IMG/VR virus record: IMGVR_UViG_3300045988_042009
Reading direction: 5' to 3' (one strand)
DNA length: 34,414 nucleotides
Source of the DNA: a virus
Below are positions 3,334 through 4,325 of the stretch, piece by piece; the first letter of the stretch is position 1; each line of letters opens with the position of its first letter. The position numbers and the translations under genes are program-made. The notes under the pieces were generated by a model. It ran no database searches. It was not told the DNA's origin and worked only from the letters and a program-made list of their open reading frames with translations.

Positions 3334-3660
3334 ATGAAAGATAATATTGATCGTGAAATCATTGTTATAGAACCTGGGTATTCTAAGGAACAAATCAAAA
3401 GGATTATCGGACATTATAACAAAAAACAAAAGGAACAAATAAAAATAACCACTTTTGAAAGTCCTAAAGTACCTGAAAGTGAATTATTTAAAAATGCCCT
3501 TTTAAAAGGGGTTGCTTATGGTGTTTTTATGTTATTTTTCGGCATTCCTTTTCTACTATGGGGAGTTTTATCTAACTATAGTACAAATGCTGCAAATGTT
3601 TATGGAATACTTGCGTTTATCTTTACTTTATTTGTTATTATTTCTCTTGAGGATAAGTAA
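3334..3660 (+). CDS. 108-aa protein with soluble N-domain and C-terminal 2-TM hairpin
   Basis: SD GAGGAAG lies before the ATG. Hydrophobic helices are GVAYGVFMLFFGIPFLLWGVL and VYGILAFIFTLFVIISL. AT-rich coding sequence. Confidence 0.65.
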   Translation: MKDNIDREIIVIEPGYSKEQIKRIIGHYNKKQKEQIKITTFESPKVPESELFKNALLKGVAYGVFMLFFGIPFLLWGVLSNYSTNAANVYGILAFIFTLFVIISLEDK

Positions 3661-3663
3661 TTT

Positions 3664-4290
3664 TTACTTTCGTAGAAACTTATCTTTGATTTTTAATTTA
3701 AGTAAAAACCAAGTTTTTTTGTGAGAAAGTGAAACAACAAAGTCTTTTATAGATCTAATTCTATGTTGCCTCCAATGAACTTGAATGACTCTTACCCGCC
3801 CTTTCCTTTCTGCGGCGACATTTGGGTATGTATCTGGAACGGGATTGAAAGGGACTACTAAAAAGCGTTGTGGAGATTCAATTTCAAGAAAAAAATCATG
3901 TCTATATGTTCTAGGAAATTTGAAAGCAAAGTATCTAGCTTCTTTTGAATAAGGAGCAATGATAATAGGGAGATCAGAAGTCTTATCTTCTATCTCGTAA
4001 CGGTTATGATTATTGCAATGAATAACTTTTATTTCTTTGTGAATAAATTCTCCCCAATCAGAAAGATGATATTGAAACTTATCTTGAGTAACCATTAAGC
4101 CTACTACAGTGAAAGGGAGAGATGATTCATTCACAAAAGTAATTTTGACAAACATTGTCTTAGAAGATTCGTCAAAAATCGCTTGACTGTTGGAAATCCC
4201 TATTTTATACAATTCACGATAATGCTTTATCACAAAAAGGTAAGTGGACATTAGGATAGATACTAACGAGATTACAAGTGCAAGCTGCAT
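3664..4290 (-). CDS. 208-aa N-terminally membrane-anchored protein (Sie/Abi-like moron candidate)
   Basis: N-terminal TM (LALVISLVSILMSTYLFVI) followed by a beta-rich-looking domain. SD GGAG lies 8 nt before the ATG. Has its own extended -10 promoter. Very AT-rich: hand counts give 11/60 G+C at 3661-3720 and 20/60 at 3721-3780, against 26/60 at 15421-15480. Confidence 0.7.
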   Translation of the reverse strand: MQLALVISLVSILMSTYLFVIKHYRELYKIGISNSQAIFDESSKTMFVKITFVNESSLPFTVVGLMVTQDKFQYHLSDWGEFIHKEIKVIHCNNHNRYEIEDKTSDLPIIIAPYSKEARYFAFKFPRTYRHDFFLEIESPQRFLVVPFNPVPDTYPNVAAERKGRVRVIQVHWRQHRIRSIKDFVVSLSHKKTWFLLKLKIKDKFLRK

Positions 4291-4316
4291 ATTATTTCTC
4301 CAATCATTTTTATTAC

Positions 4317-4325
4317 ATTATACCA
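4317..4325 (-). promoter_or_regulatory. Extended -10 promoter (TGgTATAAT on the minus strand) for the 208-aa gene
   Basis: Plus-strand attatacca reverse-complements to TGGTATAAT. It would place the transcription start about 20 nt upstream of the ATG at 4290. Confidence 0.6.

What the first reader, a model, noticed from the sequence alone, without database searches (positions are those of the whole stretch)
3334..4325. AT-rich convergent membrane-protein pair (108 aa and 208 aa) with stop codons 3 nt apart; candidate Abi/Sie-type system
- **Arrangement:** A 108-aa protein (soluble N-domain plus 2 TM, plus strand) and a 208-aa N-anchored protein (minus strand) end 3 nt from each other with no terminator between them. 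Their transcripts must therefore overlap.
- **Independent expression:** The 208-aa gene has its own extended -10 promoter (TGGTATAAT, 4317-4325) and SD.
- **Composition:** The block is markedly more AT-rich than the phage backbone. Hand counts give 11/60 and 20/60 G+C here against 26/60 in the portal gene. Low G+C is a hallmark of horizontally acquired lactococcal Abi genes.
- **Location:** It sits inside the immunity region, which is a classic moron or defence position.
Basis: partly seen in the sequence, partly recalled or inferred. Interest (0 to 1): 0.75.

Follow-up and report, generated by a model that had tools for sequence, protein, structure and literature searches.

The report
Swappable prophage membrane-protein cassette, likely defence
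Inside the immunity region of a Streptococcus anginosus-group prophage sits a swappable, AT-rich cassette of two tail-to-tail membrane-protein genes from no characterised family; sister phages carry a known anti-phage gene (PD-T7-4) in the same slot behind the same promoter, so it is a good but untested candidate for a new phage-defence or exclusion module.

Summary
**Observation: confirmed.**
- ORFs 3334-3660 (+, 108 aa) and 3664-4290 (-, 208 aa) end 3 nt apart.
- TGGTATAAT and GGAG precede the 208-aa gene.
- The block is 31.0% G+C against 39.1% for the window.

**What it is**
- The host is a Streptococcus anginosus-group prophage, not a lactococcal one.
- The pair is one exchangeable cassette (about 3324-4287).
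- It lies between the cI-controlled lytic promoter (2963-2991) and the Cro-like gene (4347-4562).
- Phages with different immunity share it. Javan64 and Javan59 carry PD-T7-4 there instead, behind the same 62-bp promoter and leader.

**The 208-aa protein**
- It has an N-terminal membrane anchor, a beta-sandwich and a very basic tail, predicted to be cytoplasmic.
- Its family is small: 15 representatives among 1.8 billion proteins. They occur in streptococcal and lactococcal prophages and satellites.
- It has no Pfam, PADLOC, NCBIfam or PDB match and is unrelated to Sie2009, Sfi21 orf203 and PdpSau.

**The 108-aa protein**
- It has no homologues outside this cassette.
- In five lineages, 208-aa relatives carry a convergent, overlapping 60-68 aa two-helix membrane ORF. 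The 108-aa gene is its positional analogue.

**Verdict:** a plausible new Abi/Sie-like module. Function is entirely inferred.

The parts
2078..2857 (-). cI-type repressor (259 aa, HTH plus S24 peptidase)
   Evidence: Pfam Peptidase_S24 at 5e-22 and HTH_3. The N-terminal DNA-binding part differs from that of phage L010, although both phages share the cassette.
2963..2991 (+). Rightward (lytic) promoter PR, TTGACA-17-TATAAT, with operator repeats at 2936-2946 and 2968-2987
   Evidence: 12 of 12 consensus match. An inverted repeat, ATCCGgtttaaatCGGAT, lies between the hexamers.
3021..3152 (+). Small membrane-protein ORF (43 aa; more likely 37 aa from the ATG at 3039) in the conserved block
   Evidence: Substitutions in Javan59 and Javan74 are mostly synonymous or conservative, and the first ATG is not conserved.
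3066..3092 (-). First strong minus-strand intrinsic terminator downstream of the 208-aa gene
   Evidence: 12-bp stem followed by a T run. dG is -19.4 and z is -5.3. It is conserved in all five related phages.
3237..3323 (+). 28-aa single-helix membrane ORF; the last gene of the conserved left block
   Evidence: Weakly similar to the 52-aa ORF of S. lutetiensis prophages (E = 5e-4 in a small database).
3324..4287 (.). Exchangeable cassette (108 aa plus 208 aa). Both boundaries coincide with breaks in similarity to Javan64
   Evidence: Three-way alignment. The same cassette was found in 9 of 9 places examined, in phages with different cI, Cro and integrase.
3334..3660 (+). 108-aa protein: basic N-terminal domain of about 54 aa, then a two-helix membrane hairpin. 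Predicted N-in and C-in
   Evidence: SD is GAGGAAG. No family and no homologue outside the cassette.
3664..4290 (-). 208-aa protein: membrane helix 2-26, beta-sandwich about 29-150, basic C-terminal tail 166-208 (pI 11.9)
   Evidence: AlphaFold2 mean pLDDT 79. PHROG 17761 at 1e-28, function unknown. 15 representatives among 1.8 billion proteins. Charge analysis.
4288..4349 (.). Conserved 62-bp junction. It carries the cargo promoter (TGGTATAAT, 4317-4325, minus strand), the leader, the cargo SD (4298-4301) and the SD of the Cro-like gene
   Evidence: Identical in Javan64, which has different cargo, and in L010. Promoter and leader are conserved in 11 of 12 contexts.
4347..4562 (+). Cro-like HTH gene (71 aa). 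A distal copy of the operator 11-mer lies at 4539-4549
   Evidence: HTH_3 at 1e-12. The protein co-varies with the cI N-terminus and the operators between the window and L010. AAATCCGATTT occurs at 2936 and at 4539. L010 has its own operator copy after its HTH gene.

Best explanation
**Main claim.** The block is a horizontally exchanged accessory cassette (a 'moron') docked in a variable cargo slot of the prophage immunity region.

**The 208-aa gene**
- Its sigma-70 extended -10 promoter and leader (4288-4349) carry no cI operator. I infer that it is expressed in the lysogen.
- Its product is tethered to the membrane by an N-terminal helix. The beta-sandwich and the very basic tail are predicted to sit on the cytoplasmic face.
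- I infer that it acts there as an anti-phage factor. It would either block incoming DNA at the inner face or sense a phage component and collapse the membrane, in the manner of Abi proteins such as PdpSau and AbiP.

**The 108-aa gene**
- It lies on the opposite, cI-repressed lytic transcript from PR (2963-2991).
- It is the positional analogue of a small two-helix membrane ORF that converges on, and overlaps, the 3' end of 208-aa homologues in other prophages and satellites.
- I infer that it acts with or against the 208-aa protein in the membrane.

**Regulation (inferred)**
- After induction, the strong PR would read antisense through the 208-aa gene towards the Cro-like gene.
- That would silence the defence gene when the prophage itself goes lytic.
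- The 208-aa mRNA, in turn, would run antisense over the 108-aa gene as far as the conserved terminator at 3092-3066.

**Shown versus inferred**
- Shown: gene structure, cassette mobility, promoter conservation, slot allelism with PD-T7-4, predicted fold and charge distribution.
- Inferred: expression pattern, topology, defence function and any interaction between the two proteins.
For: **Cassette and slot**
- The window and L010 share the 108+208 cassette. Their cI DNA-binding domains, operators and Cro-like proteins are all different.
- Javan64 and Javan59 have the same flanks but carry a 43-aa ORF plus a 236-aa PD-T7-4 homologue (E = 2e-68; DUF4145).
- Javan278 and Javan74 hold yet other minus-strand cargo.

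**Promoter**
- An extended -10 element lies 25-29 nt before the start codon, with a conserved leader, in 11 of 12 contexts. These include satellites.

**Orientation**
- In every prophage context examined, the family gene has the orientation of cI and integrase and lies next to the switch.
- In SpyCI-like satellites it sits at the accessory end.

**Composition**
- 31.0% G+C against 39.1%, in the lowest 0.5% of windows.

**Protein architecture**
- AlphaFold2 model with mean pLDDT 79.
- Across 13 family members there are 0-1 K/R before the helix, 2-4 K/R just after it, and basic tails. Tail pI is 11.9.

**Conserved convergent small ORF**
- Five lineages carry one, overlapping by 29-51 nt. The satellite copies have strong SD sequences.

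**Transcription geometry**
- PR is the only consensus plus-strand promoter between 2700 and 4800.
- There is no plus-strand terminator up to 4800.
- Minus-strand terminators occur only at 3194-3179 and 3092-3066.

**Functional analogue**
- PdpSau is a prophage-encoded, N-terminally anchored protein with a basic cytoplasmic domain. It causes abortive infection (PMC10127798).
Against: - There are no expression, topology or phenotype data.
- The family matches no defence model in PADLOC. Foldseek gives only generic Ig-like sandwiches (E >= 2.6e-3) and uncharacterised phage proteins.
- No catalytic or nucleic-acid-binding motif is conserved. The invariant residues are N54, S56, P59, G80, P108 and F123.
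- The 108-aa protein shows no homology to the small convergent ORF family (hhalign probability 0.2%).
- Several homologues have no such partner: GBS phages, L. lactis prophages and L020.
- A weak AU-rich hairpin with a U tract at 3651-3699 could stop some PR transcripts.
- In S. lutetiensis, a promoter-like site for the HTH gene lies inside the start of the family gene. Read-through from PR to the Cro-like gene is therefore not proven.
- Slot allelism with one defence gene is guilt by association.
Confidence: 0.5

Rival explanations
1. **Single-gene module with a bystander.** Only the 208-aa gene is the functional accessory gene. The 108-aa ORF is an unrelated small early-operon membrane protein, or even a non-functional ORF, that happens to lie inside the recombination boundaries. 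The tail-to-tail geometry has no functional meaning.
For: - The 108-aa protein has no homologue outside the near-identical cassette.
- 208-aa homologues occur with unrelated neighbours or none: an 80-aa soluble protein in GBS phages, a 65-aa soluble protein in L038, and nothing in L037.
- Small hydrophobic ORFs are generally common downstream of PR in these phages, such as the 43/37-aa, 28-aa and 52-aa ORFs.
- In Javan64 the slot's plus-strand ORF is a different, soluble 43-aa protein.
Against: - The 108-aa gene is adjacent in 9 of 9 places that carry the 208-aa gene, across different phage backbones.
- A homologous 60-68 aa two-helix ORF converges on and overlaps the family gene in five divergent lineages. 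These include both prophages and satellites, whose upstream operons are otherwise unrelated.
- The 108-aa gene has a good SD and a clean two-helix hairpin.
Confidence: 0.25
2. **Type-I-toxin-antitoxin-like or addiction module.** The small hydrophobic membrane protein (the 108-aa protein here, the 60-68 aa ORFs elsewhere) is a membrane-damaging toxin. The convergent 208-aa mRNA, through its long antisense 3' region, acts as the RNA antitoxin. The module stabilises the prophage or satellite, or kills the cell when transcription is perturbed.
For: - Convergent genes have touching or overlapping 3' ends and no terminator between them.
- The minus-strand transcript should cover the whole 108-aa gene before it reaches the terminators at 3194-3179 and 3092-3066.
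- Small hydrophobic proteins with convergent 3'-overlapping antisense RNAs are the hallmark of Gram-positive type I systems such as Fst/RNAII and TxpA/RatA (own knowledge).
Against: - The antisense partner is a conserved 170-227 aa protein with a confidently predicted fold, not a small RNA.
- At 108 aa with a soluble domain, the protein is large for a type I toxin.
- In the prophage the small gene sits behind a cI-repressed promoter, so it should already be silent in the lysogen.
- Homologues without any small partner exist.
Confidence: 0.12
3. **Lysogenic conversion or phage-lifecycle factor, not defence.** The 208-aa protein changes host envelope physiology or signalling. Alternatively, it takes part in the prophage's own lysis-lysogeny control at the membrane.
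For: - It lies directly beside the genetic switch and between the operator copies at 2936-2987 and 4539-4549.
- It is always co-oriented with cI.
- It has no similarity to any known defence protein.
- Morons often encode non-defence fitness factors (PMC3594210, listed).
Against: - The slot is hypervariable, and related phages use it for a PD-T7-4 homologue.
- A lifecycle-essential function would not be freely replaceable.
- The family also sits at the accessory end of satellites.
Confidence: 0.13

Closest known systems
PdpSau (S. aureus phage 53 ORF016) and lactococcal AbiP: membrane-anchored abortive-infection proteins
   Same: - Single gene. PdpSau is prophage-borne.
- Short N-terminus followed directly by one membrane helix, then K/R-rich juxtamembrane residues.
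- A positively charged cytoplasmic C-terminal part.
- PdpSau depolarises the membrane on infection (PMC10127798; sequence).
   Different: - No sequence relationship (hhalign probability 0.3%).
- The soluble part here is an Ig-like beta-sandwich, not the OB-like fold reported for PdpSau and AbiP.
- It lies in the immunity region, not at the lysis-module end.
- It has a convergent small membrane gene.
Gram-positive prophage superinfection-exclusion proteins: Sie2009 (Tuc2009 orf2), Sfi21 orf203, Ltp (TP-J34)
   Same: - Small membrane-anchored proteins encoded in the lysogeny module.
- Transcribed in the lysogenic direction.
- Low G+C.
   Different: - Those genes lie between cI and integrase. This one lies between cI and the Cro-like gene.
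- Sie2009 has a strongly basic N-terminus, indicating an outward-facing domain. The 208-aa family has the opposite charge pattern.
- There is no lipobox cysteine, so it is not Ltp-like (sequence).
- No homology (hhalign probability 0.03% and 3%, with the membrane helix alone matching).
PD-T7-4 (single-gene defence system named in PADLOC, from the E. coli functional selection of Vassallo et al.; bioRxiv 10.1101/2022.05.12.491691)
   Same: It occupies exactly the same slot, on the same strand, behind the identical 62-bp promoter and leader in Javan64 (99% identical protein in Javan59).
   Different: It is an unrelated protein: a soluble Cys-rich N-terminus plus DUF4145. The 208-aa family does not match the PD-T7-4 model.
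Convergent-promoter transcriptional interference (coliphage 186 pR/pL) and Gram-positive type I toxin-antitoxin loci (Fst/RNAII, TxpA/RatA); own knowledge
   Same: - Face-to-face transcription units with no terminator between them.
- A strong lytic promoter opposes a weaker lysogenic-direction promoter.
- A small hydrophobic protein gene is overlapped at its 3' end by a convergent transcript.
   Different: - The convergent units here are about 1.3 kb apart, not tens of bases.
- Both encode proteins.
- Nothing has been measured.

Membership tests
Lactococcal Sie2009-type superinfection exclusion | Sequence homology to Sie2009 | tested here: not met
   hhalign of the family profile against Tuc2009 orf2 gave probability 0.03%.
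Lactococcal Sie2009-type superinfection exclusion | Gene located between repressor and integrase | tested here: not met
   The gene lies between cI (2078-2857) and the Cro-like gene (4347-4562). Tuc2009 has int-sie-rep.
Lactococcal Sie2009-type superinfection exclusion | N-terminal anchor with an extracellular C-terminal domain | tested here: inconclusive
   The anchor is present. The charge distribution predicts a cytoplasmic C-domain: 0-1 K/R before the helix, 2-4 after it, and a tail of pI 11.9. Sie2009 has 7 K/R before its helix. This is a prediction only.
Lactococcal Sie2009-type superinfection exclusion | Blocks phage DNA injection without affecting adsorption | not testable with these tools
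   Requires infection assays.
Ltp-type lipoprotein Sie | Lipoprotein signal peptide with a lipobox cysteine | tested here: not met
   The N-terminus MQLALVISLVSILMSTYLFVIKHY contains no cysteine.
AbiP / PdpSau-like membrane-anchored Abi | N-terminal membrane helix plus a positively charged cytoplasmic domain | tested here: met
   Helix at residues 2-26. Residues 27-208 have pI 9.8. The charge pattern holds family-wide. Topology is predicted, not measured.
AbiP / PdpSau-like membrane-anchored Abi | Sequence or fold relationship (OB-like nucleic-acid-binding domain) | tested here: not met
   hhalign against PdpSau gave probability 0.3%. The model is an Ig-like sandwich, and no OB-fold hits appear among the best Foldseek matches.
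AbiP / PdpSau-like membrane-anchored Abi | Abortive-infection phenotype with membrane depolarisation | not testable with these tools
   Requires experiments.
PD-T7-4 | Match to the PADLOC PD-T7-4 model / DUF4145 | tested here: not met
   The 208-aa and 108-aa proteins and three 208-aa homologues gave no PADLOC hit. The Javan64 slot protein matches at 2e-68.
Phage moron (independent accessory transcription unit) | Own promoter | tested here: met
   Extended -10 TGGTATAAT at 4317-4325 plus SD. The element is conserved in 11 of 12 contexts. This is a sequence prediction only.
Phage moron (independent accessory transcription unit) | Own terminator directly after the gene | tested here: not met
   There is none at the 3' end. 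The first strong minus-strand terminator is about 570 nt downstream at 3092-3066, in the conserved phage block.
Phage moron (independent accessory transcription unit) | Present or absent among otherwise related phages, with deviant composition | tested here: met
   The cassette is replaced by other cargo in Javan64, 59, 278 and 74. G+C is 31.0% against 39.1%.
Type I toxin-antitoxin | Small hydrophobic toxin with a convergent, 3'-overlapping antisense transcript | tested here: inconclusive
   The geometry fits. However, the antisense unit is a conserved protein gene, and the 108-aa protein is large for such a toxin. Toxicity is untested.

The most novel reading that the evidence does not exclude
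The 208-aa family and its convergent small two-helix membrane gene form a previously undescribed two-gene, membrane-based anti-phage system carried by streptococcal prophages and phage satellites.
- Self-inactivation would be hard-wired by geometry.
- In the lysogen, the constitutive extended -10 promoter makes the membrane-tethered sensor/effector.
- On induction, the lytic promoter reads antisense through the defence gene and silences it.
- The same transcript produces the small membrane protein, which neutralises the protein already in the membrane. The element therefore does not abort its own lytic cycle.
Probability: 0.2. Interest if true: 0.75.

Novelty: new variant of a known kind. Interest (0 to 1): 0.55.

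Why it matters
- **If the 208-aa family is an anti-phage factor,** it would add a new protein family to the prophage-encoded exclusion and abortive-infection repertoire of streptococci and lactococci. It has no Pfam, PADLOC or PDB relative.
- **Occurrence.** This exact 208-aa protein is listed in 328 index blocks of public assemblies. The places read include S. anginosus genomes and metagenome assemblies.
- **The slot as a search handle.** The conserved dock runs from the lytic promoter and left block, through variable minus-strand cargo, to the 62-bp promoter junction and the Cro-like gene. It could be used to mine further candidate defence genes in streptococcal prophages, much like the P2 and P4 hotspots in E. 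coli.
- **Regulation.** The convergent arrangement suggests a simple way for a prophage to restrict a defence gene to the lysogenic state without a dedicated regulator. This is directly testable by strand-specific RNA-seq.
- **Caveat.** Candidate defence genes in prophage hotspots are now found in large numbers. Without a phenotype, this remains one more good candidate.

Tried and rejected
**Family and structure searches that found nothing useful**
- Pfam, PHROGs, PADLOC and NCBIfam on both proteins returned only PHROGs of unknown function for the 208-aa protein.
- A PDB sequence search with the family profile returned nothing.
- Foldseek against the PDB returned only generic Ig-like sandwiches: PCuAC, macroglobulin domains and YjhA. 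Foldseek against BFVD returned only uncharacterised phage proteins.
- Homology to Sie2009, Sfi21 orf203 and PdpSau was tested by hhalign and rejected.

**Collection scans**
- The single-protein scan of species-representative genomes found no relative.
- The exact 26-mer of the junction was absent from viral contigs and genome contigs.
- tblastn with the 108-aa protein found no match in phages. tblastn with a small convergent ORF found only itself.

**Other checks**
- hhalign and HMM comparison of the 108-aa protein, and of the alternative-frame 70-aa ORF at 3512-3724, with the small convergent ORF family gave no relationship.
- I looked for a plus-strand promoter for the Cro-like gene in the 62-bp junction and in the 5' end of the 208-aa gene. 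None met the scan criteria. One exists at the equivalent place in S. lutetiensis, so this question stays open.
- Rfam found no family in 2800-4700 apart from a sub-threshold PyrR-site hit.
- A tRNA-like fragment I suspected upstream of the lactococcal family genes was not called by ARAGORN.
- Literature searches found no paper on this family.
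Full report
**1.

ORF 3334-3660 (+, 108 aa) and ORF 3664-4290 (-, 208 aa) exist as described. Their stop codons, at 3658-3660 and at 3666-3664 on the minus strand, are separated by three bases.

TGGTATAAT lies at 4317-4325 on the minus strand. GGAG at 4301-4298 lies 7 nt before the ATG.

The 208-aa protein has one hydrophobic helix at its extreme N-terminus. 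The 108-aa protein has a charged N-terminal part of about 54 residues followed by a two-helix hairpin.

The block is 31.0% G+C against 39.1% for the window. That puts it in the lowest 0.5% of windows of the same size. Only about 11.85-13.0 kb is as AT-rich.

No canonical terminator lies at the junction. Folding shows only a weak AU-rich hairpin across the two stops, and it is no better than shuffled sequence.

**2. Where it sits**

The window is a prophage of the Streptococcus anginosus group, not a lactococcal phage. The gene order from the left end is:

- integrase (107-1249, -)
- DUF4177 protein (1377-1646, -)
- a 139-aa membrane protein (1647-2066, -)
- S24/HTH cI repressor (2078-2857, -)
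- small plus-strand ORFs of 43/37 aa and 28 aa
- the 108-aa gene (+)
- the 208-aa gene (-)
- an HTH_3 Cro-like gene (4347-4562, +)

The genetic switch lies at 2858-3020. It contains a cI promoter (2920-2892, -) and a perfect-consensus rightward promoter (2963-2991, TTGACA-17-TATAAT). An inverted repeat lies between the hexamers, and further operator copies lie at 2936-2946.

The operator 11-mer AAATCCGATTT recurs at 4539-4549, at the end of the Cro-like gene. A sister phage (L010) has different operators and carries its own partial copy just after its own HTH gene.

**3. It is one exchangeable cassette in a variable slot**

A three-way alignment of the window, Javan64 and an S. anginosus genome prophage (L010) shows a clear mosaic:

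- The stretch from the -10 of the rightward promoter to the end of the 28-aa ORF is virtually identical in all three.
- So are the 62 bp from the start codon of the minus-strand gene to the start of the HTH gene (4288-4349).
- Between these blocks, the window and L010 share the 108+208 cassette.
- Javan64 instead carries a 43-aa plus-strand ORF and a 236-aa minus-strand gene, again with touching 3' ends.

The window and L010 differ in the DNA-binding half of cI, in the operators and in the Cro-like protein. This has two consequences. The cassette moves between phages of different immunity. The HTH gene at 4347 also behaves as the Cro partner of the switch.

The Javan64 cargo matches the PADLOC model PD-T7-4 at 2e-68 and Pfam DUF4145. 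Javan59 has a 99% identical copy. Javan278 and Javan74 hold other unassigned minus-strand genes.

The exact 208-aa protein is listed in 328 index blocks of public assemblies. In all 9 places examined the 108-aa gene is adjacent, including in a phage that uses a serine recombinase.

**4. The promoter is real in the comparative sense**

An extended -10 element (TGGTATAAT, TGCTATAAT or TGGTACAAT) lies 25-29 nt before the start codon in the streptococcal contexts and 39-40 nt before it in the two lactococcal ones. In the streptococcal contexts it is followed by a similar leader (...TAAATAAAAyGATTGGAGAAAT...). This holds in 11 of 12 contexts, which include:

- 208-aa homologues in S. lutetiensis, S. 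henryi and GBS prophages
- 208-aa homologues in satellites
- unrelated cargo in Javan59 and Javan278

**5. The 208-aa protein**

It belongs to a small family. There are 15 representatives at 50% clustering among 1.84 billion proteins. It matches PHROG 17761 and 17486, both of unknown function. It has no Pfam, PADLOC, NCBIfam or PDB sequence match.

Members occur in several places:

- Streptococcal prophages, always co-oriented with cI and next to the switch.
- Lactococcal prophages. In one of them the gene lies directly upstream of cI.
- The accessory end of SpyCI-like satellites.

AlphaFold2 was run with 13 sequences and gave mean pLDDT 79. It predicts a helix at 2-26, a beta-sandwich at about 29-150 and C-terminal helices at 177-207. 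Foldseek finds only generic Ig-like sandwiches in the PDB and uncharacterised phage proteins in BFVD.

Across the family there are 0-1 K/R before the helix, 2-4 K/R in the 15 residues after it, and basic tails. In the window protein the tail has pI 11.9 and the sandwich pI 6.6. By the positive-inside rule the soluble part should be cytoplasmic. This is an inference.

That topology is the opposite of Sie2009, whose N-terminus carries seven K/R. Profile comparisons with Sie2009, Sfi21 orf203 and PdpSau show no relationship.

**6. The 108-aa protein and the pair question**

The 108-aa protein has no family and no homologue beyond the near-identical cassette. 208-aa homologues at 35-49% identity never have a 108-aa homologue beside them.

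My own ORF scan changed this picture. In five lineages a 60-68 aa two-helix ORF, often unannotated, converges on the family gene and overlaps its 3' end by 29-51 nt. The lineages are:

- S. lutetiensis prophages
- Javan252
- Javan627
- Javan390
- a metagenomic satellite

These ORFs are homologous to one another, sharing a C-terminal F-x-x-G/I-E/A-Y/F/S-F/L motif and similar length. Those in the satellites have strong SD sequences. They have no Pfam or PHROG match.

They occur both at the end of the prophage rightward mini-operon and at the end of the satellite DUF1492 operon. These operons are otherwise unrelated. The unit that travels is therefore the family gene plus the small convergent membrane gene.

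The 108-aa gene occupies the same position and has the same synteny: rightward promoter, then a small one-helix ORF, then a two-helix ORF facing the family gene. It shows no detectable sequence similarity to the small ORF family. I treat it as a positional analogue and not as a proven partner.

GBS, L. lactis and some other members lack any such neighbour. The family gene can therefore stand alone.

**7. Transcription geometry (inferred)**

The consensus scan gives the following picture:

- The rightward promoter is the only plus-strand promoter between 2700 and 4800.
- There is no plus-strand terminator before 4800.
- The 56-nt gap before the Cro-like gene is filled by the minus-strand promoter and two SD sequences.

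The simplest reading is that the lytic transcript crosses the cassette antisense to the 208-aa gene to reach the Cro-like gene.

In the other direction, the 208-aa transcript meets no terminator until 3194-3179 (weak U run) and 3092-3066. The latter is a 12-bp stem with a U run, dG -19.4 and z -5.3. It is conserved in all five related phages. The transcript should therefore cover the 108-aa and 28-aa ORFs in antisense.

This arrangement would confine 208-aa expression to the lysogen and switch it off on induction.

Two caveats apply:

- The weak hairpin with a U tract at 3651-3699 might stop some lytic transcripts.
- S. lutetiensis has a promoter-like site for its HTH gene inside the start of the family gene.

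**8. Comparison with known systems**

- **In working principle,** the closest analogues are PdpSau and AbiP. These are N-terminally anchored proteins with a basic cytoplasmic domain that abort infection at the membrane (PMC10127798).
- **In genomic logic,** the closest are prophage morons and defence hotspots such as those of P2 (bioRxiv 10.1101/2022.05.12.491691).
- **Membership** in the Sie2009, Ltp, PdpSau or PD-T7-4 families was tested and not met.

**9. Verdict**

- There is strong contextual evidence for a lysogen-expressed accessory cassette in a defence-type slot.
- There is moderate evidence, by analogy only, for a two-gene module.
- No function has been demonstrated.

I rate the finding as a new variant of a known kind, with interest 0.55.

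Noticed in passing
window 3035-3222 (both strands), just left of the finding: The conserved block downstream of the lytic promoter folds into an unusually stable multibranch structure.
- The outer stem pairs 3035-3060 with 3197-3222 and encloses four inner hairpins.
- MFE is -67.8 kcal/mol (z = -5.6) on the plus strand and -84.9 kcal/mol (z = -7.6) on the minus strand.
- It overlaps a small ORF that nevertheless evolves like a coding sequence.
- The 10-bp core of the outer stem pairs the ORF's start codon with the region upstream of the 28-aa ORF.
- Rfam gives only a sub-threshold PyrR-binding-site hit on the minus strand (31.8 bits, E = 0.055).
   Followed up: partly
window 4539-4549; L010 7210-7225: The operator 11-mer AAATCCGATTT from the switch (2936-2946) recurs exactly at the 3' end of the Cro-like gene, 1.6 kb away. 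A phage of different immunity has a 13-of-16 copy of its own operator palindrome just after its own HTH gene. This suggests a distal operator, so the cassette would lie inside a possible repressor-mediated DNA loop.
   Followed up: partly
window 4548-4800, minus strand: A second small minus-strand gene (51 aa, 4548-4703) follows the Cro-like gene.
- It has a strong SD and its own extended -10 element (TGTTATAAT, 4735-4743).
- Further upstream, CTGTGCTATAAT (4789-4800) nearly repeats the 208-aa promoter CTGTGGTATAAT (4317-4328).
- A terminator-like hairpin (4770-4747) lies between the two elements.
- Another TGTTATAAT lies antisense inside the 108-aa gene at 3413-3421.
   Followed up: no
window 1285-1373 (+): An Rfam gathering-level match to Spy779816, an S. 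pyogenes small RNA (69.3 bits, E = 4.6e-10), lies between the integrase and the DUF4177 gene.
   Followed up: no
L001 (Javan64) 4666-5376; L022 (Javan59) 3559-4269: The gene annotated 'hypothetical protein' in these two deposited phage genomes is a clear PD-T7-4 / DUF4145 homologue (PADLOC E = 2e-68).
   Followed up: yes
L010 2793-3866; L029 and L032; L002-L009, integrase-proximal region: A second variable slot lies near the integrase, on the cI side.
- An Abi_2 gene is present in some S. anginosus phages but absent from the window.
- In S. lutetiensis prophages the slot holds SLATT plus TIR (ThsB-like), DUF6414 or NYN genes.
   Followed up: no
L002 6599-6784; L012 4628-4834; L013 2442-2624; L014 3358-3540; L015 1458-1649 (all minus strand in locus coordinates): A family of 60-68 aa two-helix membrane ORFs is missing from several deposited annotations and gene calls. 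These ORFs overlap the 3' end of the 208-aa-family gene. Their hydrophobic C-terminus is encoded antisense to the lysine-rich tail of the larger protein.
   Followed up: partly
window about 11850-13000: This is the only other stretch as AT-rich as the finding. It covers the 3' part of a 444-aa primase/helicase-like gene and a gene-poor stretch before a DUF1492-like regulator gene.
   Followed up: no
window 3512-3724 (+): An alternative-frame 70-aa hydrophobic ORF overlaps both the 108-aa gene and the last 61 nt of the 208-aa gene. It shows no similarity to the small convergent ORF family and is probably not a gene.
   Followed up: partly
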